This document shows, in pieces, positions 4,921 to 42,466 of a stretch of DNA of 43,559 bases. Each line of letters opens with the position of its first letter. The stretch's first letter is position 1. The notes under the pieces are model-generated. The model was not told the DNA's origin, ran no database searches, and saw only the letters and a list, made by a program, of their open reading frames with translations. The stretch is from Babesia bigemina (Eukaryota): contig NW_012237264.1 of the NCBI RefSeq assembly GCF_000981445.1, positions 1-43,559 on the forward strand, written 5' to 3'. Position numbers and translations under genes: made by a program.

Positions 4921-5047
4921 TCGTACTCACGTGTTTACTATCTACACTCACCTAGCATATCACCTACTCACCTATACAACTAATTGTTGTCTAATGTTTT
5001 GAATCACTCATTAACCGTTGTACGTGATTGTGTAATAGTTAACTAAA

Positions 5048-5232
5048 GTGCTGAACAATGTGCTGACCAAAGTGCTGCCCAAAGTGTTGACCAAGGTGCT
5101 GACCAAGATGCTGACCAATGTGCTGACCAAAGTGGTGACCAATGTGCTGACCAAGGTGCTGACCAATGTGCTGACCAAGGTGCTGACCTATGTGCTGACC
5201 AACGTGGTGACCAATGTGCTGACCAACGTGAT
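5048..5232 (+). repeat. 12-bp tandem array (GTGCTGACCAA[A/T/G/C]), module part 1
   Basis: About 15 degenerate copies read directly; the same array recurs four more times. Confidence 0.95.
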
Positions 5233-5240
5233 GACAGTAG

Positions 5241-5261
5241 ATGGTTACGGCAGCGATGACA
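5241..5261 (+). repeat. single copy of the 20-bp unit ATGGT(C/T)ACGGCAGCGATGAC, module part 2
   Basis: atggttacggcagcgatgaca at the same relative position as the multi-copy arrays at 14692, 22729, 32166 and 42467. Confidence 0.85.
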
Positions 5262-5287
5262 GTTGATGACCTAAGTGGTTATTATTA

Positions 5288-6221
5288 CCCACCCTACATC
5301 GCTCCCTAATCCACTCTACATCGCTCCCTAATCCACTCTACATCGCTCCCTAACCCACTCTACATCGCTCCCTAACCCACTCTACATCGCCCCTTTATCC
5401 ACTCCACATCGCCCCTTTACTTACTCTACATCGCTCCTCTACCCACTCCACATCGCTCCCTAATCCACTCTACATCGCCCCTTAATCCACTCTACATCGC
5501 CCTATTACCCACTCTACATCGCTCCCTAACCCACTCCACATCGCTCCCTAACCTCCTCTACATCGCTCCCTTATCCACTCCACATCGCTCCCTAACCCAC
5601 TCTACATCGCTCCCTTATCCACTCTACATCGCTCCCTAATCCACTCTACATCGCTCCCTAACCCACTCTACATCGCCCCTTTACCCACTCTACATCGCTC
5701 CTTAGTCCACCCTACATCGCTCCCTTATCCACTCTACATCGCCCCTTTACCCACTCTACATCGCCCTTTATCCACTCTACATCGCCCCTTTATCCACTCT
5801 ACATCGCCCCTTTATCCACTCCACATCGCTCCCTAATCCACTCTACATCGCCCCTTATCCACTCCACATCGCCCCTTAACTTCCTCTAATCGCTCCCTAA
5901 CCCACTCTACATCGCCCCTTAACCCACCCTTCATCGCTCCCTAATCCACTCTACATCGCCCCTTTACCCACTCCACATCGCCCCTTTATCCACTCCACAT
6001 CGCCCCTTAACCCACTCCACATCGCTCCTTTATCCACCCTTCATCGCTCCCTAACCCACTCTACATCGCTCCTTTATCCACCCTTCATCGCTCCTTAACC
6101 CACTCCACATCGCCCCTTTATCCACTCTACATCGCTCCCTAATCCACTCCACATCGCCCCTTAACCCACTCCACATCGCCCCTTTAACCACTCCACATCG
6201 CTCCTCTATCCACTCTACATC
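5288..6221 (+). repeat. 22-bp C-rich minisatellite array (CCACTCTACATCGC[T/C]CC[C/T]T[A/T]A[C/T]), module part 3
   Basis: About 0.93 kb, roughly 42 units; ends immediately before the ves leader AATCACCTCGCC. Confidence 0.97.
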
Positions 6222-9200: not shown

Positions 9201-11139
9201 AGGTGACTACGTATTTAAGAGGATTATGTGGCCGATTAAAAAAGCCGTGGATATCGAACACCTTCATAATTGTGAATCGAGAAAGCCGAATAGATATGAC
9301 AACTTCCACATCTTCGACATACTGCGGTGTATATACAGTCACTTTGAGCAGTACAACGAAGTCTGCCACATTGCTACTTCCTCAGCTAGGAGGCAGCCGT
9401 GCAGCGTCTATGAAATGCTTATATGGCTCACTGGTCTTCCATACGCTTCTGTATACGGCACAATGCGTGACATAACTTTGTCGGAGTTTTTTGAAGACTC
9501 AACTAAACAGGTTGCTGCAGAAATAGAGGGTATTGAGATGACACTCACGGACATTGGTGCCGTACCCATACAAGCTTGTCCACGTGACATAACGTATAGC
9601 AAAGTAACGAAAGCAATCACCCATATCTGCGCGAAAGCATATGATGTTCTCGCATCCATAGCAGGTCACGGCGACGAATACACGCTGTACGCCAGTGACT
9701 ATTGCAACAACTCTCTAGGTCTCAAATATCCTAGTTCTGGTCAGGATTGTCTTGATATGCTCCTAGATGTACTACGGAGATGCTTGCCAGCACTCCGATA
9801 CATCTTCCAGCGATGCAACGTAACCGCTGAGCACCACGGCTGGCGCAATTGTGAGTACGGCAAGGATGTGCCGACAGCCAAATCGCATTGTAGCAACAAA
9901 GCAACGAGCCAACCAAACAGCCAACCAAAGAGCGAAGCAAAGTGCCAACCAACTTCCCCGCTGATGAGCTATCTTAACGACTGCCTGCCTGGTCACTTAC
10001 CGCATAATGTCAGCTCCATAGGGTGCAGATCGGTATGCAGCAACTGTCCCTCCGCTGCGAAGCTTGGTATGCCGTGTCTGACGCCCATGGGATTCCGCGG
10101 TTTCTCTGGCTCAACCAAAAGTGGCGCGGACCTATGTGAAATAATTCGCGAATTCTTCGGTAGTGGCCTGGTAGCATCATTGCTCGGCTTGTCACCGACT
10201 CCGCCGAAAACGCTGCCAGAACACTTCGGATTTGCTTTGTCGCTTGTCAATGGATGGGTTAATATTACCAATTTGACGCCCGAGAAACGCAGTGAATTTA
10301 GCTTTCAATCGTCATTTGAATCACGCATACGTGATGTCTCTCTTAAGTTATATCCCGATTCCAATAAGTTAATAAAAACGTTGATGAGAGCATATGGTTC
10401 ACAGGCGGTTTTGCATGAATATTGCAAGCATCCTCATCTTGTCAATTTCACTAGCTCAGATATATGTCGTTACGATGTTGCAGATGTAGCCTGCGCTCCT
10501 TATCTTCAATCGCTATGCTCAGGTTCCTATGAATACATGGCCATCAAACACTGTGAACTGTACCTCACCTGGGCCATATACCTCTCATGGGATTTCTGGC
10601 GATTGCTGAACAATTTGTACAACGACTTCTGCAACATATTCTGTGCCGATTGGGGTTGCCGCGGCTGCTTGAGAGGCGATACGTGCAAGAAAGGATCGCA
10701 TGGTCGTACTGACGAAAAAACTGGGAACCCACATTGCCAGTGTCCATCAATAGTGGATTGTAATGGCGTGTCACCGACGCTGTATCGATATGGATTCAGT
10801 TTCTGTGACGCTGTCAAATTGAATGATAGTAAATATAAGAAGAAATGCTCCGATTTCTGCAGTCAGTTAAACAAATTGTTAACTTCACAATACTTCAAAG
10901 ACCTCTTCAAAGAATGCGACAACTTCATTTGGACAATCAGAGAACCGTTCACCTATCTCGTCCTGGCACTCTGGTCACTATCCCTCTTCTACCTCATTTG
11001 CGTAATGGTTGGCAGACTGGACGTGCTCCACATCAGGTCACACCTGAGGATACCGTCATCGCATAAGATTACAGCGCAGTCATTGTTGGCAGCAGCGCAA
11101 GTCGGAAGGCTTGCCAAGATATCGTACCTGCAACCGTAA
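6250..11139 (+). CDS. ves: VESA-like variant erythrocyte surface antigen, copy 2 (subtype B, divergent TM/tail)
   Basis: 1629-aa ORF with the conserved N-block and motifs TSPLMSYLNDCLPGHLPH and DWGCRGCLRGD; TM YLVLALWSLSLFYLICVMVG; tail RLDVLHIRSHLRIPSSHKITAQSLL…YLQP*. Alternative start at ATG 6529 (MGFLSGVL). Confidence 0.9.
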   Translation: MTSINHNNNLCLVTLHVPSSTSCNCPDHVPPREPGKKFGKILNLKNTSNNNPTNILNNLCTGLETFLGFNKDSKGYDGSGIVYSDLDRLCDGVMGFLSGVLDAVKNENEVITYDQYISGDNNRLKKVLDTLTKNIGSGRAGLAESVRAVKGWLEGYEREVNNKITAVTEPIEIMKNLVEHDKNEIKIEKDKNLITQVEEWTKRAKQYVSLADKAKKALKDIDPTLSGKLNNNISLLVQATGTFKAAAENGDLKDVYEEAGKQIYKVVKYAETEFGNTKKLLLNYLNEHITALHDKLVCLQRAQFDDLFTSVNNDLLGAYDKVSDGIKDLEHKYRISIFDEVHALQSSSHSFKLSFETAQRALSHVIIEIKGDMEKFRDLKEVNNIDVSLRTRVKLLNNLQNDPFKSLRDYFEQLESPTTLLALALAEIGKGMDTISSFTKKYEMGKAIKHAATALKELKSCIEGEGDTQLPNTNSITIGGEMITVGGADNLRDTLRSHMSNISNVLQKIETSPTNVNIGDTTAIFSDLSSVAEALSSHSKEIVDAVMKKITTQVTEDIQTVATYIHQKMEKMANAIDFTTEGKTDYGTYGGGAQHAAGLKKLVNEFQNAINQKLIELHGNVGKNEEHEGSVYKDLVVLRKNITALATQVDVVKENVRAVAAELSGCIRKSTRLVNHAPRIAGDMMNKLQTVICGDINKGFQSVQQKAKTLFTETKQNLTAALQKIVNKQIKNVTEIVYQDSISGMKSFCRRLKTYFVNEIASLYPHPYTPHEQTPKSLQDFSKHLTSFYHLFLREVNHSSFDEKLDPVSTKLETLLKRISDSKHFDYLVSHKYNDLQNALDNFAPKKFSTPCSPLLAPLKRGLSNFAQQLGHAYVNRYSGKQFEGELLKEVKSTTPDKPVSAPKQPSEKIYVLTPEGRNCAKVCLTIVEMVYHNLDRLRVECNGLTKHQINKSTDIGRLFSELGFKVSEKGEQNGELHDDKNKIGDYVFKRIMWPIKKAVDIEHLHNCESRKPNRYDNFHIFDILRCIYSHFEQYNEVCHIATSSARRQPCSVYEMLIWLTGLPYASVYGTMRDITLSEFFEDSTKQVAAEIEGIEMTLTDIGAVPIQACPRDITYSKVTKAITHICAKAYDVLASIAGHGDEYTLYASDYCNNSLGLKYPSSGQDCLDMLLDVLRRCLPALRYIFQRCNVTAEHHGWRNCEYGKDVPTAKSHCSNKATSQPNSQPKSEAKCQPTSPLMSYLNDCLPGHLPHNVSSIGCRSVCSNCPSAAKLGMPCLTPMGFRGFSGSTKSGADLCEIIREFFGSGLVASLLGLSPTPPKTLPEHFGFALSLVNGWVNITNLTPEKRSEFSFQSSFESRIRDVSLKLYPDSNKLIKTLMRAYGSQAVLHEYCKHPHLVNFTSSDICRYDVADVACAPYLQSLCSGSYEYMAIKHCELYLTWAIYLSWDFWRLLNNLYNDFCNIFCADWGCRGCLRGDTCKKGSHGRTDEKTGNPHCQCPSIVDCNGVSPTLYRYGFSFCDAVKLNDSKYKKKCSDFCSQLNKLLTSQYFKDLFKECDNFIWTIREPFTYLVLALWSLSLFYLICVMVGRLDVLHIRSHLRIPSSHKITAQSLLAAAQVGRLAKISYLQP

Positions 11140-11298
11140 TGGTATTCACACTTGTAATTCACAACAACTCACCTAGCATATCACCTACTCACCTAACCGA
11201 CAAACGTAGTCTAATGTCTCGAATTACTCTAGCGGCAACCTGGGAACTAGATAGCGTTGAGATTATGTGATGATTGAACAACAATGCAACGTGTTAAC

Positions 11299-11710
11299 CT
11301 AGCAGACAAGCAAAGTGTTGACCTAGCACCCAGACAAAGTGCTAAGCTGGCAGCCAGGCAAAGTGCTAAGCTAGCACCCAGGCAAAGTGTTGACCTAGCA
11401 CCCAGGCAACGTGGTAAGCTGGCACCCAGGCAAAGTGCTAAGCTAGCACCCAGGCAAAGTGGTAAGTTAGCACCCAGGCAACGTGCTAAGCAAGCACCCA
11501 GGCAAAGTGGTAAGCAAGCACACAGGCAAAGTGTTGACCTAGCAACCAGGCAAAGTGCTAAGCGAGCACCCAGGCAGAGTGCTAAGCTAGCACCCAGGCA
11601 AAGTGCTAAGCTAGCACCCAGGCAACGTGGTAAGCAAGCACCCAGGCTAAGTGTTGACCTAGCACCCAGGCAAAGTGGTATGCTAGCAACCAGGCAAAGT
11701 GTTGAGCTGG
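11299..11710 (+). repeat. 24-bp tandem array (CTAGCACCCAGGCAAAGTGCTAAG)
   Basis: About 17 units; produces the repetitive ORFs LAPRQSAK (+) and LALCLGAS (-). Confidence 0.93.
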
Positions 11711-12217
11711 TGGATGAACCGTAATTTGGTGGGTGTTGTAGCACGTCGATTGCCTGGTGCGTTGAGTTAGGCGTTGACTGTGAGAGGTGTCCGCATTGCC
11801 CATTGAGTGAGTGTCACGTGAGGCTGGGTGATTGGTCGCTACGTAGGCGGTCGTGAAGGCCGCGGCGGGTGACCCAAGTCGTGTGTTGCGAATCACTGGC
11901 AGGGTGGCGTAATCCGCGTTGACCCGGTAAAGTAGCATTTATAGGCGACAATGTAGCGATTGTTAATATCACATTTAGGCACGTAGCCGACACGCTCCGC
12001 CAGCATGGCGCCGATACCGCGGCTCGTAGCACGGTGCTGCTGCACTGTGGGAGTTGAGTGCACGGGTCGCTGCAATTAATATGGCGTTGCGAATAGTGAA
12101 TAATTTAGAGTGACAGTTGGTGCTTATCACATGCGTCGCGTCAGGGCAGCCGTGGTATCCTGGGCAGCGTGGGTGTCGGAGGCCTGGGCTGGGGGGATAC
12201 AGGGGTGAGGGGAGTTG

Positions 12218-13145
12218 GTGAGGGGACTGGGAGCGGCAGTGGTAGTGTTGCAGTTGGTGAGTGCTTGCTAGGTGAGTGATATGTTCGCAGGTTGAGGGGA
12301 CTGGGAGCGGCAGTGGTACGTGTTGCAGTTGGTGAGTGCTGCTTAGGGATTGATATGTTCGCAGGTTGAGGGGACTGGGAGCGGCAGTGGTACGTGTTGC
12401 AGTTGGTGAGTGCTGCTTGAGTGATTGATATGTCTGCAGGCTGAGGGGAGTGGCATCGGCAGTGGTAGTGTTGCAGTTGGTGAGTGCTTCTGAGGTGATT
12501 GATATGTTCGCAGGTTGAGGGGACTGGGAGCGGCAGTGGTACGTGTTGCAGTTGGTGAGTGCGTTGCTAGGTGATTGATATGTTCGCAGGTTGAGGGGAC
12601 TGGGAGCGGCAGTGGTACGTGTTGCAGTAGGTGAGTGCTGCTTGAGTGGTTGATATGTCTGCAGGTTGAGGGGACTGGCAGCGGTAGTGGTACGTGTTGC
12701 AGTTGGTGAGTGCGTTGCTAGGTGATTGATATGTTTGCAGGTTGAGGGGACTGGGAGCGGCAGTGGTACGTGTTGCAGTAGGTGAGTGCTGCTTGAGTGG
12801 TTGATATGTCTGCAGGTTGAGGGGACTGGCAGCGGCAGTGGTACGTGTTGCAGTAGGTGAGTGCTGCTTGAGTGGTTGATATGTCTGCAGGTTGAGGGGA
12901 CTGGCAGCGGTAGTGGTACGTGTTGCAGTTGGTGAGTGCGTTGCTAGGTGATTGATATGTTTGCAGGTTGAGGGGATTGGGCGCGGCAGTGGTAGTGTTG
13001 CAGTTGGTGAGTGCGTTGCTAGGTGATTGATATGTTCGCAGGTTGAGGGGAGTGGGCGCGGCAGTGGTAGTGTTGCAGTTGGTGAGTGCGTTGCTAGGTG
13101 ATTGATATGGTTGCAGGTTGAGGGGATTGGGAGGGGAAGGGAAAG
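12218..13145 (+). repeat. ~75-bp tandem array built of a 40-41 nt exon-like part plus a 33-35 nt GT-AG intron-like part; probable spliced 5' UTR
   Basis: 12 GTGAGT…(C/T)GCAG segments starting at 12257, 12332, 12406, 12480, 12555, 12631, 12706, 12782, 12857, 12932, 13007 and 13082. The repeat itself is certain; the intron interpretation is inferred. Confidence 0.85.
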
Positions 13146-13682
13146 ATGGTTTGGATAATATCAGGAGCTCCGTGTTCGGAGTGTGATTATAAATGTATAA
13201 CGTATAAATCGTGTAACTGCTGCCGCTGGTGTTGTAAAGTATGTAAGACTAGCTGGGGTTGCCGTGTTTGTTGGAAAGATCGTTACTACAGTGGCCGAGG
13301 TGCAAAGGACTGCCATCCTGATGGATGTAAATTCCAAAAAAAAACATGTACTGAACCCACTTGTCCTTGTAACTGTTGTGATGAGAAACGTGCAAGTGGA
13401 CAAATTTCGTCTGCCTCCTCCGATTCCCTTCCTTCAACCAGTGGACAGCAACCCTCTGGTCTCCCCGGTGTTACCGCTGCTCAGTTAGGTGACCCCGGAT
13501 CCGACGGTGACACTCTGTCCACACCTTCCCCCCCTCCCTATACTACCATAGCCGCCGTCATCGTTGCCATCATCGTCGCCATCATCCTGCTCGACCTGTG
13601 CATCTTCCGCTTTCCGGTGGGCCGCAACATCCGCGATTTCCTCGTACGCAAGATACCCTTCTGCATCGCGTTCTACAGCTGA
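13146..13682 (+). CDS. small Cys/Lys-rich single-pass membrane protein, paralog 1 (178 aa)
   Basis: N-terminal Cys-rich domain (CNCCRWCCKVC…CHPDGC…CPCNCC), Ser/Pro/Gly linker, TM IAAVIVAIIVAIILL and tail DLCIFRFPVGRNIRDFLVRKIPFCIAFYS*. The paralog at 41729 keeps the Cys pattern and has an identical tail. Confidence 0.82.
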   Translation: MVWIISGAPCSECDYKCITYKSCNCCRWCCKVCKTSWGCRVCWKDRYYSGRGAKDCHPDGCKFQKKTCTEPTCPCNCCDEKRASGQISSASSDSLPSTSGQQPSGLPGVTAAQLGDPGSDGDTLSTPSPPPYTTIAAVIVAIIVAIILLDLCIFRFPVGRNIRDFLVRKIPFCIAFYS

Positions 13683-13814
13683 TCGCAGCAATTTATTGGT
13701 GCAAACATTGTAATCCAAATCCCACTGATCACCTATCTGGCAACTGGCTTCTAATGTTCTAGACAGAGTAATGATCATGTTGATCAATCACATGAGCAGT
13801 GAGGTGACTTAGCA

Positions 13815-13925
13815 CCCGCCCCTTACATCATCGTCCCCGTCGCTCTCATCATCATCGTCATCTGCGTCATGGTCTACTTCCGCATCCGGCCGTTCCACAG
13901 GGTGCGGTATCTACTGCGCAGCTAA
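13815..13925 (+). pseudogene. orphan TM+tail coding fragment type B (PAPYIIVPVALIIIVICVMVYFRIRPFHRVRYLLRS*)
   Basis: Hand translation gives a hydrophobic helix followed by an Arg-rich tail, with C-ending codons like the real TM segments. No in-frame upstream ATG; an in-frame TGA lies just upstream. Confidence 0.6.
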
Positions 13926-13971
13926 TGCCAATAACCTAACTGACAACTGACATCTAATGTTCTAGACAGTA

Positions 13972-14172
13972 ATGATTGCGTTGATAATCAATCAGATGAG
14001 CGGTGAAGTGACTACTTCCCCCCCTCCCTACTCCGCCATCGCCGCCGTCATCGTTGGCATCATCGTCGCCATCATCCTGCTCGACCTGTGCATCTTCCGC
14101 TTTCCGGTGGGCCGCAACATCCGCGATTTCCTCGTACGCAAGATACCCTTCTGCATCGCGTTTTACAGCTAA
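13972..14172 (+). pseudogene. duplicated TM+tail fragment (type A) of the small Cys-rich gene
   Basis: 66-aa ORF whose last ~50 aa are nearly identical to the C-terminus of 13146..13682; lacks the Cys-rich domain; part of a ~490-bp tandem duplication. Confidence 0.7.
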
Positions 14173-14305
14173 TCTCAACGATTTACTGGCGCATAAATCA
14201 TCAATCCAAATTCCACCGATCACCTCACTGGCAACTGACATCTAATGTGCTAGACAGTCATAATTGCGTTGATGATCAATGACATGAGCAGTGGGTGACC
14301 ATAAC

Positions 14306-14416
14306 CCCGCCCCTTACATCATCGTCCCCGTCGCCCTCATCATCATCGTAATCTGCGTCATGAGCTACTTCCGCATCCGGCCGTTCCACAGGGTGCGGTA
14401 TCTACTGCGCAGCTAA
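14306..14416 (+). pseudogene. second copy of TM+tail fragment type B
   Basis: PAPYIIVPVALIIIVICVMSYFRIRPFHRVRYLLRS*, 491 bp downstream of the first copy. Confidence 0.6.
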
Positions 14417-14509
14417 TCACAATAACCTAACTGGCAACTGACATCTAATGTTGTAGACAGCGTAATGATTGCGTTGATGACGAATCGCATGAGCAGTGAG
14501 GTGACCTAC

Positions 14510-14690
14510 CACCTGACCTAGTAACTGACCAAGACACTGACCAAGGTGCTGACCAAGGTGCTGAACAAAGTGCTGACCAATGTGCTGACCTATGTGCTGA
14601 CCAATACCATGACCAATGTGCTGACCAACGTGCTGACCAATGCCACGACCAGAGTGCTGACCAAGATGCTGACCAATGTGCTGACCAAGT
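14510..14690 (+). repeat. 12-bp tandem array
   Basis: GTGCTGACCAA-type units. Confidence 0.93.
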
Positions 14691-14691
14691 A

Positions 14692-14812
14692 ATGGTCACG
14701 GCAGCGGTGACATGGTTACGGCAGCGATGACATGGTCACGGCAGCGATGACATGGTGACGGCAGCGATGTCATGGACACGGCAGCGATGACATGGTCACG
14801 GCAGCGATGACA
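14692..14812 (+). repeat. 20-bp tandem array (about 6 copies)
   Basis: ATGGTCACGGCAGCGATGAC, period 20. Confidence 0.93.
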
Positions 14813-14838
14813 GTGGTGACCTAAGTGGTGATTATCAT

Positions 14839-16940
14839 CCACTCTACATCGCCCCTTTACCCACTCCACATCGCTCCCTAACCCACTCTACATCGCCCCT
14901 TTACCCACTCTACATCGCCCCTTTATCCACTCTACATCGCTCCCTAACCCACCCTTCATCGCCCCTTAACCCTCTCTACATCGCCCCTTTATCCACTCTA
15001 CATCGCTCCCTAACCCACTCTACATCGCCCCTTTACCCACTCTACATCGCCCCTTTATCCACTCTACATCGCTCCCTAATCCACTCTACACCGCTCCTTA
15101 ACCCACTCCACATCGCCCCTTAACCGACTCTACATCGCCCCTTAACCCACTCCACATCGCCCCTTAACCCACTCTTCATCGCCCCTTTATCCACTCTACA
15201 TCGCTCCCTAACCCACTCCACATCGCCCCTTTATCCACTCCACATCGCTCCTTTATCCACTCTACATCGATCCTTTATCCACTCTACATCGCTCCTTTAC
15301 CCACTCTACATCGCCACTTAACCCACTCTACATCGCTCCTTTATCCACTCCACATGGCTCCTTTACCCACTCTACATCGCCCCTTAACCCACTCCACATC
15401 GCTCCCTAACCCACTCCACATCGCTCCCTAACCCACTCTTCATGGCTCCCTAACCCACTCTACATCGCCCCTTTGACCACTCCACATCGCTCCTTAACCC
15501 ACTCCACATCGCCCCTTTATCCACCCAACATCGCCCCTTTACCCACTCTACATCGCCCCTTTACCCACTCTACATCGCCCCTTTATCCACTCTACATCGC
15601 TCCTTTACCTACTCTACATCGCCCCTTATCCACTCTACATCGCCCCTTAATCCACTCTACATCGCCCCTTAACCCACTCTACATCGCCCTTTATCCACTC
15701 TACATCGCTCCCTAACCCACTCTTCATCGCTCCCTAACCCACTCTTCATCGCCCCTTTATCCACCTTACATCGCTCCCTAACCCACTCTACATCGCTCCC
15801 TTATCCACTCCACATCGCCCCTTTATCCACTCTACATCGCTCCTTAACCCACTCTACATCGCTCCTTTATCCACTCTACATCGCTCCTTTATCCACTCTA
15901 CATCGCCCCTTAACCCACTCTACATCTCCCCTTTATCCACTCTACATCGCTCCTTTACCCACTCTACATCGTCCCTTATCCACTCTACATCGCTCCCTAA
16001 CCCACTCTACATCGCTCCCTAACCCACTCTACATCGCTCCCTAACCCACTCCACATCGCTCTTTAACCCACTCTACATCGCCCCTTTATCCACCCTACAT
16101 CGCCCCTTATCCCACCCTACATCGCCCCTTTACCCACTCCACATCGCCCCTTAACCCACCTTACATCGCCCCTTAACCCACTCTACATCGCCCCTTTACC
16201 CACTCCACATCGCCCCTTTATCCATTCTACATCGCCCCTTTACCCACTCTACATCGCTCCTTTATCCACTCTACATCGCCCCTTTACCCACTCCACATCG
16301 CCCCTTTACCCACTCTACATCCCCCCTTTATCCACTCTACATCCCCCCTTTATCCACTCTACATCGCTCCCTAACCCACTCTTCATCGCCCCTTAACCCA
16401 CTCCACATCGCTCCTTTATCCACTCTACATCGCCCCTTTGTCCACTCTACATCGCCCCTTAGCCCACTCTACATCGCCGCTTATCCACTCTACATCGCTC
16501 CTTTATCCACTCTACATCGCTCCTTTATCCACTCTACATCGCTCCTTTATCCACTCCACATCGCCCCTTTACCCACTCTACATCGCTCCTTAACCCACTC
16601 TACATCGCTCCCTAATCCACTCTACATCGCCCCTTAACCCACTCTACATCGCCCCTTTGTCCACTCTACATCCCTCCTTATCCACTCCACATCGCCCCTT
16701 AACCCACTCCACATCGCCCCTTAACCCACTCCACATCGCCCCTTAACCCACTCCACATCGCCCCTTTATCCACTCTACATCGCCCCTTTATCCACTCTAC
16801 ATCGCCCCTTTATCCACTCTACATCGCCCCTTAATCCACTCTACATCGCTCCCTAACCCACTCTACATCGCTCCTTTACCCACTCTACATCGCTCCCTAA
16901 TCCACTCTCCATCGCCCCTTAATCCACTCTACATCGCTCC
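14839..16940 (+). repeat. 22-bp C-rich minisatellite array (~2.1 kb)
   Basis: CCACTCTACATCGC… units directly upstream of ves copy 3. Confidence 0.97.
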
Positions 16941-17242
16941 AATCACCTCGCCATAATACCGTTATGACCTCTTTAGGCCATCCTAATAACTTGTGCCTTG
17001 TCACCCTTCACTTCCCTCCTTCCACCTCTTGCCACTGCCCAGACCATGTGCCGCCTAGGGAGCTTGGCAAGAAATTTGACAAAATTTAAAGCCTTAAAAA
17101 TACCTTAAATAACAACCCTACTGACATCCTTAATAACCTCTGCACTGGCCTCGAAACTTTCCTCGGCTTCAACTCTGAGTCCAAAGGCTACGACGGCAGT
17201 GGCATTGTGTACTCTGACCTGGACAGGCTGTGTGACGGGGTG

Positions 17243-20200: not shown

Positions 20201-22432
20201 AACAAATACTCGGGAGCTAACGACATAACTTGGGAAGAGAGTCGAGGTTCAGCCGGTAAGAGGAAATTAACAGTTGACGGTCGAAAGTGCGCCAAAGTAT
20301 GCCTTACAATAGTTCCGATGCTAACCGACGGATTGAAGGAGCTGAAAGATGGGCTTGAGGATGAAGGTTGGCAAGAGTACAAAATATATAATGATTCCAA
20401 CTCCAACCACAGCTTACATAGACGCTTCTTCACCGAGAACGGATATGACGTCGGTGTCTCCATCGGTTCCAAGTACGGCGAATTGAATCACAATGACGAG
20501 TGCAATGGCCAGCGTATTCTTGGTCATCTAATGCATCAGTCTTACAAATTATTTACTTCCAGCTCCACCCAACAGCGTTCTCTACCTGCTACCGATGACA
20601 TCTCCGTCGTGGAGGTTGAGGAGGGCGGTCGACTCTCGGACCTATTTAGCCACCTTTACAACTACTTCCGCGTCTGCCACCTCGGCGCTCCCTCGAAGAA
20701 ACACCCGTGCTCCGTTAACGAGATGCTGTGCTGGCTGACCGGACTGCCACACAATGGCGTATATGAGAAGCTGCGGAAACATGTCAAAACGCTCTTCGAA
20801 GTGCCGGATGAAAACGATCCAACTAAGAAAAACATCGAACCCATCAATGCCTCTCCTCAGCGCATTACGCATGACAATGTCAATACCGTTATCGAACAAG
20901 TCTGTGCCAAGTCCTACGCCCTGCTGACCACATTCGTCGGCACAGGTGACGAGGCAACGTACTACGCGTGTGAGTTCCCTAACAACACGCTTGGTTTGCA
21001 GTATCCATCCAATCCAGCCGACTGCCTCGACACGCTGCTAGACATACTCCGTCGCATAATCCCGCCGTTGAAATTCCTGTTCATGCAATGCGGCCAGCCA
21101 GCGTCTGAAAATGGTTGGTTGCGCTGCCTGTACGGCAAGAATGTAGCGTCCTCCAAGTGGCCGTGCAAGGAGCACTCAAAGAGCAAATCAAAGTGCGAAG
21201 CAAAATGCCAACCAACGTGCGGACCAACGTGCCAACCAAATTGCCGGCCAACGTCTCCACTTCAGTCCTACCTATCCGACTCTCTCACCGGCCATCTGCC
21301 GCATTCTCTAACGTCCATCGGCTGCAGAGCTGAGTGTAATACATGTCCTAAGGGTAAGCCAGGGATGCCCTGTATCACTCCGCTCGGGTTCCGTGGCTTC
21401 TCCGGGTCGACCAAGACAGGCTCCTACCTGTCCGCAGTCATCGGGGATTTCTTAGATATTGCAAATATTCATACCCTGTTTGGCCTATCACCTACAACGC
21501 CAAAGACGCTGCCGGAACACTTCGATTTTGTTTCGTGTCTTGTGCGTGGGTGGCATAATAGTACAAACAAATACCGTAAGGTTGGAGTCCAAGAAGCATT
21601 CGAGAACTCCGCCCGCAGCTTGTCCATCAAGCTGTATAAGCAGCCTCACGAGCTTACTGATGCGCTGCGTTATGCCTATGGTGACACGAAGGCTGCTAAG
21701 GTTGAGCTTATCCATAAACCTCCACATGCTACGTTGGCAACTCTGTCGATGATAACATCAAATGACCCTAACCAAAAGGCATATTGTTCTCCTTATATGT
21801 TACCTCTCTGCACAAATGCCTACACGTGTCTGCCATTCAAGAACTCTAATACGTATCTCTCCTGGGCCATCTACCTCCCGTGGACATTCTGGGACCTGCT
21901 CAACAATCTATACAAGGCCTTCTGCTCCATCAACTGCCAGGACTGGGGATGCCGTGGATGTCTACGTGGTGATAAGTGTAAGAAGGGGGAGCATGGATCT
22001 GTCAACGACGTTACGAAGAAATGTAACTGCCAATGCAGATCCATCGTTGACTGCAAAGGCGTGGCACCAACGCTCTACCAGTTCGGTTTCGCCTTTGGTG
22101 AGGCGTCGACGTTGAATGACAAAGCATCGCCGAAAAGGTGCTCTGATTTCTGTAGTCAATTGAAGAATGTTTTAAAATCGAAATATTTCGAAAAATTGTT
22201 TGAAGAATGTGACAACTTCCTCTGGATCATCAGACAACCCTTCTCCTACCTTGTCCTCGCTCTCTGGCTCCTCTCTTTCCTGTACCTCCTACACATCATG
22301 GTCATCCGCCTCGACCTGCTCCACATCAAATCGCATTTGCATAGTCCCTCGAGTCATCGTATTGCTGCTCAATCACTACTTGCAGCCGCACGTGTTAACA
22401 AACTGGGCAAAGTGTTTTATCTGCAACCATAA
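17243..22432 (+). CDS. ves: VESA-like variant erythrocyte surface antigen, copy 3 (subtype B); upstream ATG 16964 is interrupted by TAA 17087-17089
   Basis: Long ORF with the family motifs and …YLQP* end. The first ATG after the stop is 17243 (MGFLSGVL); 17207 in the ORF track is a GTG. It could be a silent cassette or pseudogene. Confidence 0.85.
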   Translation: MGFLSGVLGAVKNENEVTTYDKYIENNEKRLNKVIEKLNNKIGSGRTGLAESVGAVRGWLEGYGKKLDEKTKNVITHLKTLSENIDSNIISVTALRDFHSAASGWKSTVIGDLQGTLKDAVDAFGELDKDLQGTLQTDIKHIEVRINDFAGIAERDHEELRSLGSKVIEQLMELDSDTSEYVTKRGQVLINSMKKTFDDEIKLPMRILTRSLSDAYGALYSWGDVAMKVVDAATVKVDEILQEIGEGVEAREKQAVRQAAEALHQKAGVLLRAIKAAKLKLVQRVLGAQNVVRSMDYSLRTDLHKLKQKIVSEMKNHVKAQILEYIKTEVHEIKGTNGIEGITGKMQKYVQAFKDDAFEEKVKEWVKQILQENEAVKYWITQYVKYNESKGSLQSDYINVTRDGIKDEKAEEIAGIITGKIKDSVIAPSVKEFKELFQRIDAGGASKIQEHIEAVKGGLKSFVAQLGKYITEHSMNVGEIVTAVEGVLKSKSNIGEYGNYNLRSAIENIVAAVQSSASRIAEEMEAFTGDTAPMVGSCVDKALEKTTALLQNLLNATIDPPGSTFAHSSAPRVNLAEEIDKIADKVKEQLPDGGTDHDTKDTVDLLKADRSFVGYKTYIEPKVITSFFTIPPTGALPDAINEIEKQVNEDLDNIEDSNGHMITVEAIKGALALFQSQFRSFASIICVLVDHNGIPNGDGPNNKRGVKQLLRDLNEMCISKTAGGLYGVECDLAKILTKIDGILCKDSTHNLNKLIAAAGEFHKTTIATRVNQCVSKMTDFIHDQVNLRINLIMCDALSRYVNNAKQQLMELNTLVKNKIREFDVIIKKDLTTKMKGLMLTLSGVRVDSQRSKPNKLDALKSAVTGSDMDFATQFQVLSDKSERYLNSIVTYVWNDLGKATDSQTRDAHVSMVVKLRDSVYKLLTHLKNNFSKTSNFDLHFVNLHDELKMILEGLIPVEFGATSYPILDALKSGLTELANELDNTYVNKYSGANDITWEESRGSAGKRKLTVDGRKCAKVCLTIVPMLTDGLKELKDGLEDEGWQEYKIYNDSNSNHSLHRRFFTENGYDVGVSIGSKYGELNHNDECNGQRILGHLMHQSYKLFTSSSTQQRSLPATDDISVVEVEEGGRLSDLFSHLYNYFRVCHLGAPSKKHPCSVNEMLCWLTGLPHNGVYEKLRKHVKTLFEVPDENDPTKKNIEPINASPQRITHDNVNTVIEQVCAKSYALLTTFVGTGDEATYYACEFPNNTLGLQYPSNPADCLDTLLDILRRIIPPLKFLFMQCGQPASENGWLRCLYGKNVASSKWPCKEHSKSKSKCEAKCQPTCGPTCQPNCRPTSPLQSYLSDSLTGHLPHSLTSIGCRAECNTCPKGKPGMPCITPLGFRGFSGSTKTGSYLSAVIGDFLDIANIHTLFGLSPTTPKTLPEHFDFVSCLVRGWHNSTNKYRKVGVQEAFENSARSLSIKLYKQPHELTDALRYAYGDTKAAKVELIHKPPHATLATLSMITSNDPNQKAYCSPYMLPLCTNAYTCLPFKNSNTYLSWAIYLPWTFWDLLNNLYKAFCSINCQDWGCRGCLRGDKCKKGEHGSVNDVTKKCNCQCRSIVDCKGVAPTLYQFGFAFGEASTLNDKASPKRCSDFCSQLKNVLKSKYFEKLFEECDNFLWIIRQPFSYLVLALWLLSFLYLLHIMVIRLDLLHIKSHLHSPSSHRIAAQSLLAAARVNKLGKVFYLQP

Positions 22433-22556
22433 TCGTACCCACCTGTTTACTACCTACACTCACCTAGCATCACCTACTCACCTAACTTATGAATTGTGCT
22501 TTAATCTGTTATATCACTCATTAATCGTTGTATGTGATTGTGTAATAGTTAACTAA

Positions 22557-22727
22557 AGTGTTGACCAATGTGCTGATCAATGTGCTGACCAATGCCATGA
22601 CCAAAGTGCTGACCAATGCCATGACCAGAGTGCTGACCAAGGTGCTGACCAACCTGGTGACCAATGTGCTGACCAGAGTGCTGACCAATGCCATGACCAA
22701 AGTGGTGACCAAGCACCTGACCAAGTT
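22557..22727 (+). repeat. 12-bp tandem array
   Basis: GTGCTGACCAA / GCCATGACCAA units. Confidence 0.93.
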
Positions 22728-22728
22728 G

Positions 22729-22771
22729 ATGGTCACGGCAGCGATGACATGGTCACGGCAGCGATGACATG
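22729..22771 (+). repeat. 20-bp tandem array (2 copies)
   Basis: ATGGTCACGGCAGCGATGAC x2. Confidence 0.9.
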
Positions 22772-22793
22772 GTGACCAAAGTGGTGATTATAA

Positions 22794-25700: not shown

Positions 25701-26097
25701 GTTCCTTATCCACTCCACATCGCCCCCTAATCCACTCTACATCGCTCCCTTATCCACTCCACATCGCTCCCTTATCCACTCTACATCGCCCCTTCATCCA
25801 TTCCACATCGCCCCTTTAACCACTCTACATCGCCCCTTTATCCACTCCACATCGCTCCTTAACCCACTCTACATCGCTCCCTAACCCACTCTACATCGCC
25901 CCTTAACCCACTCTACATCGTCCCTTTACCCACTCTACATCGCCCCTTTATCCACTCTACATCGCTCCTTAACCCACTCCACATCGCCCCTTTATCCACT
26001 CTACATCGCCCCTTTATCCACTCTACATCGCTCCCTTACCCACCTTACATCGCTCCCTTATCCACTCTACATCGCCCCTTAACCCACCTGACATCGC
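22794..26097 (+). repeat. 22-bp C-rich minisatellite array (~3.3 kb)
   Basis: Longest array; contains an internal duplication at offset 636. Confidence 0.97.
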
Positions 26098-31748: not shown

Positions 31749-31872
31749 TCGTACTCACGTGTTTACTATCTACACTCACCTAGCATCACCTACTCACCTA
31801 ACTTATGAATTGTGCTTTAATCTGTTGCATCACTCACTAATCGTTGTATGTGATTGTGTAGTACTTAACTGA

Positions 31873-32161: not shown

Positions 32162-32165
32162 TTAA

Positions 32166-32370: not shown

Positions 32371-32387
32371 CAAGTGGTGATTATCAT

Positions 32388-38200: not shown

Positions 38201-40874
38201 CCCAGTGAAGACCGCTCTTGGCGGAGGTGGACATGGAGAGAAAGTGAAATCGCTGTCCGATAGATCACAAGCCTATTTCCTTCACCTTTTCACCTACTTG
38301 CGTAAAGATATGGAGAAACATTTTACTTCTCAGCCTCAGGTCCACGGTGACTATCATAGTCGTATCAACACCATCCGCTCGAACCTCACCACCCTCCTCG
38401 ACCACATCAGCACTCACAAACACTTCGACCACCAGGTGCCCCAAATGCTCGACACACTCAAGAAGTCCCTTACCACCTTCACGTCCTCGCACTTCGGCAA
38501 CGCATCCTACCCCGTGCTCGACGCCTTTCCCCGAAGCCTGGAGCAGTTCGTCGACGAGCTGGAGAGGATGTACGTGAATAGGTATGATGGGCATAAGCAG
38601 AAGGTTAATATGGGTAAATTGGTTATTAGTGATGGTGATAAAGGTGAAAAATTAACGGATGACGGCAGAAACTTGTCGAAGGTATTTTTGACGAGTTTGG
38701 TGACTTTGAAAGCCGGGTTAGACGAGTTAAAGCAGAATGCTCCAAACGCCTGGAGAGGAAGACAAATTTATTTGCAAGACAGTAACGAAGATGAAAACTC
38801 ATTTGGTCAATTTTTGAACAAGTGCGGTTACAAAGTTTCCAAGTCGCATGATTCCCATGAAGGTCACCTGAGGAATAAGGAGCAGTGCAAAGGTCAATAT
38901 ATCCACGACGGTCTTCTTGTAGGCGATAAGCAGCATATTTATCACTCAGATAAAAACGGTAAACGTGCACTCGAGATACTTTTCGACTATTTGGAGACAT
39001 ACAACGACTTATGCCATCTCTCAACATTAACCTCCAAGAGACAGCCATGCTCCGTGTACGAGATGCTCGCTTGGCTCTCGGGACTAACGCACAATCCGGT
39101 ACACCAAAGTAAGCTAAGCGTAGCCATCATGAACGTTTTGGAAGAGCTATACAAAAGAGGTAGAGAAGATGAGGGAGAACATGGCGACGTATTAGCAGTA
39201 GAACGACAAGCAGACGGAGGGGAGTTCAAAGTGTCATTGGTTGATGCACGCTCCGTATCCCTGGAAGCCTACCCACGTGACGTATCATATGATGAACTGT
39301 GGGCAGCCGTGACGCATATATGTTCGACTTCATATGACGTCCTTTGCGCAATTGCCGGTCACGGCGACGAATTCACGACATACGCTGTGGACTATTCCAA
39401 CAATCACATGAAATTCAATTACCCCCAAAACGGGGAAGATTGTCTCGATATGCTCCTTGACATCCTTCGTCGAATGTTGCCAACATTACAATATTTGTAT
39501 AGTCAGTGCAGGCTCAGCAATGGGCTCAACGGTTGGCAAGCGTGCAAGTACGGCAAGGATATCATGACAGCCAAATGGCCATGCAAAGTTCATCCATCCG
39601 ACGAACCAGATAATAAATCAAACTGCCAAGCAAAGTGTAAACCAACGTGCCAAGCAAAGTGCGAAGTAACGTGCCAAGTAGATTGCCAACCAACATCGCC
39701 ATTGATGAGTTACCTGAACGACTGCTTGCCGGGTCATTTACCTCATCAACTTACTAAAATTGGATGTAAGTACGAGTGTTCCAATTGCTCAACTTCTAAA
39801 AAGGGTAAGCCTTGCCTGACGCCTCTTGGATTCAAAGGTTTCTCCGGATCCACACGTATGGGTAAGGACATATGTGAAGTGCTGACCAAATTCATCAACA
39901 TCAAGCATCTTACGGGTCTATTCACGCTGATTCCCAAGCCGCCTTCCACGTTGCCAGAGCACTTCGGTTTTACCTTGGCGCTGGCGATTGGTATTAATGC
40001 AACATCTAGAACTAATAATTACGATCCTCATGCGTTTAGAGGCGTGTTTGCCGCATCCATCTACGAGCAAACTATTAACCTCTGTACCGACCAATCCACA
40101 TTGACCAATGCGTTAACCGACGCATATGGGTCGCCGTCTCCAACACATGGCGTATGCGAACATGCCCACGTTAGAAATCTCACGGCGTCCGATAGCTGCA
40201 AAGGGAAGACCAATTTGGAACTCGAATGCGCTCCGTACCTTGCCAATTTATCTGTCGACTGTTATCGATACCTCGGTAAAAAGCATTCCAACCTCTACTT
40301 GTCATGGGCTGTCTACCTCCCTTGGAGCTTTTGGACGAATCTTAAAAATCTATATGACGCGTTTTGCAACATTTACTGTCAAGACTGGGGCTGTCGTGGT
40401 TGCTTAAGAGGCGACAAGTGCAAACGTGGAGAACATGGATCAATAAGTGACGCTTCCAAACAACCTAATTGCCAATGCCACTCCATTGTTGACTGCAGAG
40501 GCGTCGCTCCAACTTTGTACAGTTATGGCTTTTCCTTCGGTGACCCATCGAAATTGCAGAACGAGCATTATCCAAACACATGTGCCGACTTCCGCAAGCA
40601 ATTGAAAAATGTATTGAAGTCGGAATACTTCACAAAATTATTTGAAGAGTGTGACAAATTCTTATTCACCATCAGAGAGCCCTTCATCTGGCTCAACGTC
40701 GCCCTCTGGCTCCTCTCCTTCCTCTACCTCCTCCACATCATGGTCATCCGCCTCGACCTGCTCCACATCAAATCGCATTTGCACTCACCATCATCACATC
40801 GCATCGCCACGCAATCACTACTCGCCGCTGCACGTGTTAAAGCACTCAACAAAGTGCTGTACCTGCAACCTTGA
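35274..40874 (+). CDS. ves: VESA-like variant erythrocyte surface antigen, copy 5 (subtype B); upstream ATG 34995 is interrupted by TAA 35118-35120
   Basis: Long ORF with TSPLMSYLNDCLPGHLPH, DWGCRGCLRGDKCK, TM and …YLQP*. The first ATG after the stop is 35274; 35238 in the ORF track is a GTG. Confidence 0.85.
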   Translation: MGFLSGVLDAVKDDDAVRTYDKDISGDKIDTVINTLNKKIGSGRHGLAASVAAVKGWLEGYELEYRKKASNVTEVLGELKTKIAGKYTHDVAGAAGEKLETQLTRWTETLESIELDVNNTENQYVNMLDSTLKRDAMREVKPINTSVNMLLDAAQNPEVTEQVKVVDWMLDEQEKRVKNEIRKHSKQLRETSDGEFRKVLGKIFELKNNKHEQFGHVRNVVGMAKEEAQGLLARFDGEYRKQIIRHFDAIKGALADVNMKENPTGKMNTSKLKEDAEKIKTSLETISLRLGGHVGELENWMYKTKNHINEFKEQEVEKIIELNKGGFGSWKENITQAAKEVYTETNRFDEQFQLLKAKLEEEVEHVNGRGGALSQLTALENHMNGEVPRELAGFKTNGWTLTEQITELTSRITTNVKEYVKTHLGKQIKGEVEKKTNKIIKQDARQGGDNGFLGDIETKIYAYAKTFQLQQFGNKVEEWIINILQKDPVKEWLAAYISSNANGRLGNKQTHELHTPILNAIKIAVEAAIRTAGEMIEVQGKDQIRDNIETVKKACNHFATQLEAHFTSAKINGFVKDLVDKVEKTLTGAHSNTVYSAHLVIALQATLASLAAKARQVASELDSLVISSQHNIALNLQSAIRDVKALGNSIEMEIGKTDSVPHGSAENLGHQIQTQLGNQATNRDFDNQLCELLQAAIKNGVKKLQEALNGSAISKLKSVDKSVEGVVESAKQAKEGVAGRVKEIETNLTELMSWITETGNIVKNELQKLINYKIYGSLTEVKNKIGTLRTTDLYNVIDTDIKAVNAIIASLESLPGVVDTMKGETEAKMETLQENVDVLQKLLVNIEVNVKLADEQIEKSIDVVQQCLQDSCENVTTAIELLENNLIAVVADAFQRVTQEVRAMFAKERTAHLSALKTLLSTQLKIITCTVNKNLNTGLKGFLKTLSGDSVDDYAAGYKERPKHLPPKTQKPNLLDPVKTALGGGGHGEKVKSLSDRSQAYFLHLFTYLRKDMEKHFTSQPQVHGDYHSRINTIRSNLTTLLDHISTHKHFDHQVPQMLDTLKKSLTTFTSSHFGNASYPVLDAFPRSLEQFVDELERMYVNRYDGHKQKVNMGKLVISDGDKGEKLTDDGRNLSKVFLTSLVTLKAGLDELKQNAPNAWRGRQIYLQDSNEDENSFGQFLNKCGYKVSKSHDSHEGHLRNKEQCKGQYIHDGLLVGDKQHIYHSDKNGKRALEILFDYLETYNDLCHLSTLTSKRQPCSVYEMLAWLSGLTHNPVHQSKLSVAIMNVLEELYKRGREDEGEHGDVLAVERQADGGEFKVSLVDARSVSLEAYPRDVSYDELWAAVTHICSTSYDVLCAIAGHGDEFTTYAVDYSNNHMKFNYPQNGEDCLDMLLDILRRMLPTLQYLYSQCRLSNGLNGWQACKYGKDIMTAKWPCKVHPSDEPDNKSNCQAKCKPTCQAKCEVTCQVDCQPTSPLMSYLNDCLPGHLPHQLTKIGCKYECSNCSTSKKGKPCLTPLGFKGFSGSTRMGKDICEVLTKFINIKHLTGLFTLIPKPPSTLPEHFGFTLALAIGINATSRTNNYDPHAFRGVFAASIYEQTINLCTDQSTLTNALTDAYGSPSPTHGVCEHAHVRNLTASDSCKGKTNLELECAPYLANLSVDCYRYLGKKHSNLYLSWAVYLPWSFWTNLKNLYDAFCNIYCQDWGCRGCLRGDKCKRGEHGSISDASKQPNCQCHSIVDCRGVAPTLYSYGFSFGDPSKLQNEHYPNTCADFRKQLKNVLKSEYFTKLFEECDKFLFTIREPFIWLNVALWLLSFLYLLHIMVIRLDLLHIKSHLHSPSSHRIATQSLLAAARVKALNKVLYLQP

Positions 40875-41580
40875 TAGACCACCTCACCACCACTCACCTA
40901 ACTCACTACCTAGCAACCCACCGCCTAACCTAATACTCACCCAAATATATTACGTAATTCCTACTCAGCAATTGGCAGTTAATGTAGTTCATGCAATTAT
41001 AGGTTCTTGTTTTGCGATATAGAGTTGTGAGCTACAGGTGAAATGTGCCCACGCCCTCCCATGGCTTTAGTGGGTAGTGATGTCGGGTTATAAGTCATCA
41101 ACCTACGCTGCTTAAGCGTGTTGTGATAAGTGAACGTGAAGCGTATGAAACGTGACTGTGTTGAACGTTAGCTATCATGTGCGATGTTAGGCAATGAATG
41201 TAGCTGCGGTTACCCTATGTGATGGCCAGTGGGCGGCGTAGCTATGTGACATTGATGGCAACGGTGTAAATGAGAAGCACGTTAATCAAGTGATGTGGCT
41301 CAGTTAGGCACTAATGATGACACAAAGGTGATGATATTTATAAGCGGAATTGGCAACGTCGGATGGACTGCAATGGATCAAATTGCCTTATCAAATGACA
41401 CCGGGTGACCTGCATGCCACGGCGAGGATACCAGCCACGTGCTCTACCTCGGTAGTACTTCAGCTTTGGCAGCTGCATAGTTGTGATGTAATTGGATGTA
41501 AGTTTTATGGCGGTTAGCCGGGTGGCTGTGGAACTTATGGAAGACGGCAGTGTCCTTGGCTGAGGTACGTGGTTCATGGT

Positions 41581-41728
41581 TGCAGTTGGTGAGTGCGTTG
41601 CTAGGTGATTGATAAGGTTGCAGGTTGAGGGGACTGGGCGCGGCAGTGGTACGTGTTGCAGTAGGTGAGTGCGTTGCTTGAGTGATTGATATGTTTGCAG
41701 GCTGAGGGGACTGGGACTGGGAGGGAAG
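41581..41728 (+). repeat. two copies of the ~75-bp exon/intron-like leader unit
   Basis: GT-AG segments at 41589-41623 and 41665-41700, homologous to the 12218-13145 array. Confidence 0.8.
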
Positions 41729-42244
41729 ATGGGTTATTACGATTGTATATGTGGTACTGGATGTGTAAGATTAGTAGTATGTTATTGCTGCCCGTGGTGT
41801 TGTGAAAAATGTACTACTGGCATTGGTTGCAATGGATGTTGGTATGATTTTAATTATACGCGCAAAAAGAGCAAGCACTGCCATCCTAAAGGATGTGAAC
41901 AACAACAAAAGCAGTGTACCGACTTTAAAAAATGTGGATGTGAATGTTGCCTGAAGAAACGTCCACCTGAACAGCTTGCTGCCTCCCATTCTTCCTCCGG
42001 TGCAGAGTCTTCTGCTCCCTCCGGTGTTGCCGCTCGGACTGGTGGTCTCGATTCCCACGGTGAAGATCTGTCTACCACTTCTACACCTTTCCGCCCTGAC
42101 CCCCAAGCCATCGCCGCCGTCATCGTTACCCTTATCGTCGCCATCATCCTGCTCGACCTGTGCATCTTCCGCTTCCCGGTGGGCCGCAACATCCGCGATT
42201 TCCTCGTACGAAAGATACCCTTCTGCATCGCTTTCTACAGCTGA
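41729..42244 (+). CDS. small Cys/Lys-rich single-pass membrane protein, paralog 2 (171 aa)
   Basis: CYCCPWCCEKC…CHPKGC…CGCECC, Ser-rich linker, TM and a tail identical to paralog 1. Confidence 0.82.
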   Translation: MGYYDCICGTGCVRLVVCYCCPWCCEKCTTGIGCNGCWYDFNYTRKKSKHCHPKGCEQQQKQCTDFKKCGCECCLKKRPPEQLAASHSSSGAESSAPSGVAARTGGLDSHGEDLSTTSTPFRPDPQAIAAVIVTLIVAIILLDLCIFRFPVGRNIRDFLVRKIPFCIAFYS

Positions 42245-42461: not shown

Positions 42462-42466
42462 GTTAG

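What the first reader, a model, noticed from the sequence alone, without database searches (positions are those of the whole stretch)
12218..13145. Minisatellite whose unit is a micro-exon plus mini-intron: 12-intron 5' leader vs 2 introns in the paralog
Seen: each ~75-bp unit is a 40-41 nt G-rich segment plus a 33-35 nt segment starting G|GTGAGT and ending TGATATG…GCAG|G. There are twelve units before gene 13146 and only two (41589-41623, 41665-41700) before paralog 41729. All 12 intron-like parts contain an ATG while the exon-like parts contain none. Exon lengths are not multiples of 3, and an in-frame TGA lies in the last exon, so the leader is non-coding. Known: piroplasm introns are typically very short GT-AG introns. 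Inference: intron number changes by tandem repeat expansion, and complete splicing removes 12 upstream AUGs, giving a copy-number-tunable expression control.
Basis: partly seen in the sequence, partly recalled or inferred. Interest (0 to 1): 0.8.

Follow-up and report, generated by a model that had tools for sequence, protein, structure and literature searches.

The report
Intron-copying repeat in Babesia gene leader
In the cattle parasite Babesia bigemina, a 75-base repeat that looks like one whole tiny intron plus its flanks stands 12 times in front of one predicted membrane-protein gene and twice in front of its sister gene, so these genes likely gain introns by simple repeat expansion, but splicing and any effect on expression are untested.

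Summary
The sequence observation holds. Twelve G|GTGAGT…GCAG|G segments of 33-35 nt, each with one ATG, alternate with 40-41 nt ATG-free spacers before gene 13146; two precede paralog 41729. Both genes belong to a family of short Cys-rich, predicted single-membrane-helix proteins found only in B. bigemina; it is not ves2. Repeat-derived peptides head 21 of 44 public family records, so the unit is family-wide. Indirect support for introns: the strict pattern arises in 0.33% of shuffled units (13% if looser), and variation clusters mid-intron, sparing splice sites (p about 0.05). No RNA could be laid, so splicing is unproven. Corrections: each intron ATG opens only a 4-codon uORF; other ATGs lie upstream; the spacer holds alternative splice sites; the paralog's first intron has no ATG and its last exon no in-frame stop. 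The unit also resembles the reverse complement of ves1 3' ends, which keeps a non-intron origin open. Best reading: tandem amplification of a 5' UTR intron, likely spliced, likely near-neutral (0.5). Copy-number rheostat: 0.12.

The parts
12217..13116 (+). Array of 12 units (about 75 bp): 40-41 nt G-rich spacer (exon-like) plus 33-35 nt G|GTGAGT…TGATATG…GCAG|G segment (intron-like); 10 distinct unit sequences, units 6=8 and 7=10
12257..12290 (+). First intron-like segment (34 nt); the other eleven are listed in the observation check
12281..12295 (+). First of 12 four-codon uORFs (ATG-x-GCA-GG(T/C)-TGA) that straddle each acceptor and exist only if that segment is retained
13082..13116 (+). Twelfth intron-like segment (35 nt), 1 edit from the paralog's first segment
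13117..13145 (+). Last exon-like piece: first 16 nt of the spacer plus purine-rich stretch before the ATG; in-frame TGA
13146..13682 (+). 178-aa ORF: Cys/Lys-rich N-terminal half, Ser/Pro linker, hydrophobic helix (residues 132-153 in the model), conserved tail; B. bigemina-specific family of hypothetical proteins
12131..12216 (+). Unique upstream sequence 'type A' (ATG at 12131 starts MRRVR…), shared with 4 public family models
11969..11975 (+). Only TYAYWWW initiator-like match between 11720 and 13146; weak candidate transcription start
   Evidence: motif from PMC4148916
41565..41588 (+). End of the paralog's first exon-like piece: GTACGT…GTTGCAG-TTG, the sequence that forms the 3' end of every array spacer; upstream of it the two loci do not align
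41589..41700 (+). Paralog leader: segment (35 nt, no ATG), 41-nt spacer, segment (36 nt, ATG)
41701..41728 (+). Paralog last exon-like piece, open and in frame with the CDS
41729..42244 (+). 171-aa paralog, 54% amino-acid and 72% nucleotide identity to 13146
40863..40897 (-). 35-nt GTGAGT…TTGCAG stretch antisense to the stop codon and 3' UTR of the ves1-like gene 35274; best match to the unit elsewhere in the window

Best explanation
The array is likely a complete short intron in the 5' untranslated leader that has been copied head to tail together with its exon flanks, so each added unit would give the transcript one more 33-35 nt intron and one more 40-41 nt non-coding exon. Shown: the repeat, its splice-like ends, 12 versus 2 copies, and that each spacer consists of the start of the last exon joined to the end of the paralog's first exon, which is what duplicating [exon end, intron, exon start] produces. 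Inferred: transcription through the array, unit-by-unit splicing (with some use of the second donor in the spacer), and copy-number change by unequal crossing-over or gene conversion as in the neighbouring arrays. The copy number is likely close to neutral. Side effects would be a longer G-rich leader (at least 517 nt spliced) and a minority of transcripts with a retained intron and a 4-codon uORF.
For: Donor and acceptor at a fixed short distance in all 14 copies; strict pattern in 0.33% of shuffles and absent from 8 other regions tested. Mean pairwise distance per site among the 12 copies is 0.000 in the first 8 intron bases, 0.245 mid-intron, 0.084 in the last 14 bases and 0.072 in spacers. 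None of 12 donor and acceptor positions varies, reached by 4 of 77 rotations of the mask. A TGATA block that could be a branch site is invariant. Intron-like parts are 48% GC, spacers 61%. The two loci share only the unit and its flanks, not the upstream DNA. Units 6=8 and 7=10 show internal re-duplication. Repeat-derived peptides start 21 of 44 family records, 1-6 spacers' worth each, and 9 of 9 hits to such a peptide are family members. Mean B. bovis intron length is 60 bp (PMC5081931 Table 1).
Against: No transcript evidence of any kind. Looser splice patterns are common by chance (13-41%). The rotation test is borderline (p about 0.05), and the branch-like block was picked because it was invariant. 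The spacer's own GTAC…GTTGCAG block is as conserved as the splice sites. The same ab initio models use an internal donor equally often (11 of 44) and pick junctions that keep a frame open. The unit resembles the reverse complement of ves1 3' ends, so the motifs may have another origin. The spliced leader would be 517-763 nt against a B. bovis median of 152 nt.
Confidence: 0.5

Rival explanations
1. Not introns. The unit is a DNA-level minisatellite (promoter, boundary or recombination element), possibly derived from an inverted piece of a ves1 3' end, and the splice-like words are inherited or compositional. The array lies upstream of the transcription start, or the gene is silent.
For: The intron-like half is matched best in the window by the antisense of the five ves1 stop and 3' UTR regions: p 0.002-0.006 against 500 shuffles; with other scoring p 0.004-0.013 (5 of 5), and 0.005-0.034 for the coding tail LDLLHIKSHLHSP (4 of 5, the fifth 0.65); 8 of the 9 best non-overlapping windows are ves1 3' ends. 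The locus is full of non-spliceable arrays (12-, 20-, 22-, 24-mers).
Against: The five ves1 ends are paralogs, not independent. Part of the match is splice-consensus words and the G/T versus C/A skew; similar short inverted matches exist to the small gene's own 3' region. A non-splicing element does not explain why variation falls mid-intron or why the array starts and ends in exon-like phase at both loci.
Confidence: 0.2
2. Mirage-like decoys. The unit came from a real 5' UTR intron, but the extra copies are skipped or used irregularly (first donor to last acceptor, or the internal GTACGT donor), so the mature leader does not scale with copy number.
For: Precedent: amphioxus mirages do not disturb normal splicing (PMC3087553 passages) and human F7 IVS7 pseudo-donors stay silent (PMC1557585 abstract). 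The spacer has alternative donor and acceptor sites.
Against: Those repeats copy one boundary. Here each unit has both a donor and an acceptor 33-35 nt apart. A 5'-to-3' scanning or intron-definition mode would be expected to remove each one (inference).
Confidence: 0.18
3. Copy-number rheostat. All units are spliced imperfectly, each retained intron adds a uAUG, and selection uses unit number to set the output of each family member.
For: All 12 ATGs sit in the intron-like part and none in spacers, and each ends in the invariant TGA three bases into the next exon. If each intron is removed independently with probability 0.95, fully spliced RNA is 54% for 12 units and 90% for 2; at 0.99 it is 89% and 98%. 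Intron 1 of B. bovis ves1 genes is recalled to repress the opposing gene (memory, no call).
Against: The ATG lies inside the TGATATG block, so it may be a by-product of a branch or acceptor motif; one paralog intron lacks it. Four-codon uORFs are usually weak repressors (general knowledge). Other uATGs lie upstream. No evidence of selection on copy number was found.
Confidence: 0.12

Closest known systems
Amphioxus 'mirage' minisatellites (Adh3, globins BflGb6 and BflGb9; PMC3087553, passages read)
   Same: Tandem repeat whose unit spans exon-intron sequence, with variable copy number; proposed as a route to intron gain.
   Different: A mirage copies one boundary and lies inside a long intron, and normal splicing is reported unaffected. 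Here each unit carries a whole short intron, in a 5' leader, across a gene family.
Human F7 IVS7 37-bp VNTR (PMC1557585, abstract read)
   Same: Minisatellite that multiplies a splice donor.
   Different: Donor only, copies silent, inside a coding gene's intron.
[quoted passage not shown]
   Same: New introns from tandem duplication with inherited splice signals; paralogs differ in repeat number, and some cases are in UTRs.
   Different: Those cases make a new intron out of exonic or boundary sequence, one at a time, and have cDNA support. Here an entire intron appears multiplied up to 12 times, without cDNA support so far.
B. bovis ves1beta genes (PMC2034396 and PMC4066756, passages read)
   Same: Paralogs of a Babesia surface-antigen locus that differ in intron number (2 to 11).
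   Different: Those introns are described as inconsistent in length and location within ves1beta gene models, not as tandem copies in a 5' leader. The gene here is not a ves1 homolog.
BbigVes2 and smORF (PMC4066756 section 22 part 1 read)
   Same: Short multicopy genes interspersed with ves1.
   Different: VESA2 is homologous to the ves1b 5' end, has a signal peptide and no membrane anchor. This family has a C-terminal hydrophobic helix and no detected ves1 homology.

Membership tests
U2-type spliceosomal intron | GT donor with extended consensus | tested here: met
   G|GTGAGT in 14 of 14 copies
U2-type spliceosomal intron | YAG acceptor | tested here: met
   GCAG|G in 14 of 14 copies
U2-type spliceosomal intron | Branch site before the acceptor | tested here: inconclusive
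   Invariant TGATA 10-14 nt before the end; no Babesia branch consensus was available to score it
U2-type spliceosomal intron | Length typical for the species | tested here: inconclusive
   33-36 nt; only means were found (B. bovis 60 bp); no B. bigemina length distribution
U2-type spliceosomal intron | Removed from the transcript | not testable with these tools
   No run listed, so no reads could be laid
Mirage / splice-junction minisatellite | Tandem unit spans exon and intron sequence, copy number varies | tested here: met
   12 versus 2 copies; exon/intron status itself is inferred; alleles and isolates not tested
Mirage / splice-junction minisatellite | Unit copies a single boundary | tested here: not met
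   Each unit has both donor and acceptor
Mirage / splice-junction minisatellite | Extra splice sites unused | not testable with these tools
   No RNA
Intron gain by duplication of an AGGT exonic segment (Rogers model) | New intron formed from duplicated exonic sequence between two AG|GT sites | tested here: not met
   The unit contains a distinct intron-like half and exon-like half, consistent with copying an existing intron
BbigVes2 | No membrane anchor | tested here: not met
   Hydrophobic helix 132-153
BbigVes2 | Homology to the 5' end of ves1b | tested here: inconclusive
   hhalign E 0.34 against one ves1-like ORF (35274) whose class, a or b, was not determined
VESA1 | Conserved VESA C-terminal domain | tested here: not met
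   Different tail; no profile match to ORF 35274

The most novel reading that the evidence does not exclude
A previously unnamed family of about 40 B. bigemina Cys-rich membrane proteins sets its expression with a variable-number array of whole introns in the 5' leader: every unit is spliced, every miss leaves a stop-terminated uORF, and unequal crossing-over dials protein output up or down per gene copy.
Probability: 0.12. Interest if true: 0.8.

Novelty: new variant of a known kind. Interest (0 to 1): 0.45.

Why it matters
Proven cases of recent intron gain are few (PMC4974935 abstract). If the units are spliced, this family is a natural series of 1 to at least 12 near-identical introns made by repeat expansion, and existing B. 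bigemina RNA-seq could test it directly. Regardless of splicing, the result points to a B. bigemina-specific multigene family beside ves1 that my ten literature searches did not find described, and shows that about half of its public gene models likely have false repeat-derived N-termini.

Tried and rejected
No whole genome is held for this window, so no genome-wide unit count or intron model could be made. RNA run search with the paralog region 40880-42370: none was listed; this is no evidence on expression, and no reads were laid. Metagenome contigs: no relative of the protein; one 20-nt pattern match, L001, is a lone match in unrelated sequence. Pfam: nothing for the two small proteins at E 0.1. 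PDB sequences: nothing. Rfam 11000-14600: nothing at E 0.1. Longer or fused forms, 313-2000 aa: none, weak evidence. Atlas look-alikes of homolog P0001: best 0.84, under the lead bar; structure TM under 0.3. AlphaFold model pLDDT 49.7, pTM 0.27, too poor for a fold search, which was not run. Expression tables: 0 of 14 family ids in the blood/kinete RNA-seq table of PMC9806345, but three ves control ids and the term 'variant erythrocyte' were also absent, so uninformative. 0 of 23 family ids in the proteome table of PMC4066756, where the control id was found; that is another strain and 366 proteins, so weak (its supplementary file 1 could not be searched and may bear on the family). 0 of 6 ids in PMC9531838 supplements and 0 of 6 terms in PMC5660447 supplements, id format not checked. 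Coding micro-exons rejected: stops in all frames of the spliced leader of 13146. Antisense RNA against ves1 not supported: duplex of intron 11 with ves1 tails is -27 to -34 kcal/mol against shuffle means of -25 to -27, sd about 2.6. No stable hairpin in the introns (about -4 kcal/mol).

Full report
Setting. The window holds five long ORFs of 1552-1874 aa whose C-terminal membrane segment and tail mark them as ves1-like (my recognition; Pfam gave no VESA hit), and two short ORFs, 13146-13682 and 41729-42244. All 36 homologs of the first short ORF in the 97-312 aa range are B. bigemina hypothetical proteins. A profile search of 1.84 billion representatives gave 24 hits: 20 already seen and 4 new, which are also B. 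bigemina. The family has a variable Cys/Lys-rich N-terminal half, a Ser/Pro linker, a hydrophobic helix and a nearly invariant tail. It is not ves2, which is described as secreted and anchorless (PMC4066756 section 22), and shows no profile match to the one ves1-like ORF tested. All homologs come from one public annotation, so they are paralogs; nothing here tests variation between isolates.

Observation. Confirmed as written, with additions. The paralog's first segment has no ATG. Its last two exon-like pieces are open and in frame with the CDS, though no in-frame ATG lies upstream in the stretch translated. Every intron ATG in the array begins M-x-A-G-TGA, whether only that intron or all are retained. 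The spacer carries a second donor-like site and two more GCAG.

Anatomy. The two loci do not align upstream of the unit. In the paralog the first exon-like piece ends in GTACGT…GTTGCAG-TTG, and in both genes the last piece starts with G(T/C)TGAGGGGAYTGGGA. The array spacer is that start, nine further bases, and that end. This is the product expected from duplicating an intron with both flanks (inference). Ten of 12 units are distinct, with 6=8 and 7=10, which argues for real internal re-duplication over a simple assembly stutter. The unit is family-wide: 21 of 44 family records (two of them tail-only fragments) start with peptides that translate the spacer, 1 to 6 spacers' worth, a lower bound. 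All 9 hits to such a peptide region, among 7998 scored candidates of 144-461 aa, carry a family tail. These models are ab initio, trained on B. bovis and manually improved. They use two reading frames and at least three junction types (11, 11 and 3 of 44; 2 read into the intron), so they show that the sites look like Babesia splice sites, not that they are used, and they suggest the extensions are annotation artefacts.

Is it an intron? For: strict pattern in 0.33% of shuffles and in none of 8 other regions; variation confined largely to mid-intron (0.245 per site against 0.000 at the donor and 0.072 in spacers); no variable column among 12 donor and acceptor positions, 4 of 77 rotations; lower GC in the intron-like half. 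Against: looser patterns are common (13% and 41%); the tests are post hoc or borderline; the spliced leader would be 517 nt at least, and 763 nt from the one initiator-like site, against a median of 152 nt in B. bovis (PMC4148916 passages); and there is no RNA. I found no B. bigemina intron length distribution; that 33-35 nt is the typical short class in Babesia is recalled, not checked.

An unexpected resemblance. The reverse complement of the unit resembles both the stop codon plus 3' UTR and the LDLLHIKSHLHSP coding stretch of the window's ves1-like genes (figures under the first rival). One such place, 40863-40897 on the minus strand, is itself a 35-nt GTGAGT…TTGCAG. Either the unit descends from an inverted ves1 3' fragment, or ves1 ends have antisense transcripts with similar introns, or shared skew and splice-consensus words produce the match. 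Short inverted matches to the small gene's own 3' region favour a compositional share. Pairing energies give no case for antisense regulation. This is unresolved.

Regulation. Arithmetic alone shows unit number matters only if splicing is leaky: 54% versus 90% fully spliced at 0.95 per intron, 89% versus 98% at 0.99. A longer G-rich leader (G4Hunter 25-nt maximum 2.1) could also lower translation. Nothing here shows such an effect or selection for it, and expression of the family is itself undocumented in the tables I could search, which were uninformative or weak.

Comparison. It works like intron gain by tandem duplication and like mirage minisatellites, but differs in copying a whole intron, in a 5' leader, across a gene family. 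B. bovis ves1beta genes are a Babesia precedent for paralogs with 2 to 11 introns (PMC2034396 passages). Ten literature searches listed no paper on this repeat or family; PMC4066756 section 20 mentions unnamed species-specific genes with a conserved C-terminus and membrane segment, which may include it. Also seen as passages only: PMC9806345, PMC9531838, PMC6630957, PMC5660447, PMC5081931, PMC9323827, PMC6381282 (plus its section 6). Earlier notes of this scan on other genomes report one-boundary repeats whose extra sites were unused; they are unchecked leads and raised the decoy rival slightly.

Verdict. Real feature, likely a multiplied 5' UTR intron, splicing unproven, rheostat unsupported. 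New variant of a known kind, interest 0.45.

Noticed in passing
window 4830-4970, 11126-11190, 22421-22487, 31657-31803, 40783-40910 (minus strand): The antisense of every ves1-like 3' end carries several GTGAGT words followed by GGTTGCAG at the YLQP stop; at 40863-40897 this forms a 35-nt intron-like stretch. Possible spliced antisense transcripts, or the source of the array unit.
   Followed up: partly
window 16964-17089 and 34995-35120: Two ves1-like genes have an in-frame TAA at codon 42 of the upstream frame (17087, 35118), so their long ORFs start later (17243, 35274); the copies at 6250 and 26124 are open there. They may be silent donor copies.
   Followed up: no
window 13810-14417: Three orphan membrane-helix and tail cassettes follow gene 13146 with a 491-bp period, alternating a second tail type (…RIRPFHRVRYLLRS) with the gene's own. 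Other family members end in that second tail. Possible reservoir of alternative C-termini or duplication debris.
   Followed up: partly
window 5048-6221, 14537-16937, 22555-26097, 31874-34970, 42371-43556: An ordered set of 12-bp, 20-bp and 22-bp arrays, the last C-rich and up to 3.3 kb, lies between gene ends and the next ves1-like start; the 22-mer contains TAACCC words like a telomere repeat (recalled).
   Followed up: no
window 41498-41517 and 41565-41585: Two further 20-21 nt GT…AG stretches (GTAAGT…TTAG, GTACGT…TTGCAG) upstream of the paralog's units, each holding an ATG.
   Followed up: no
window 13146-13400: The small protein's N-terminal half is cysteine- and lysine-rich, while PMC4066756 says B. 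bigemina VESA1 lacks the B. bovis CKRD domain; homology to CKRD was not tested.
   Followed up: no
P0002, P0008, P0011, P0027, P0029, P0034, P0036, P0037 and others: Public gene models of this family likely have false N-terminal extensions translated from the repeat.
   Followed up: yes
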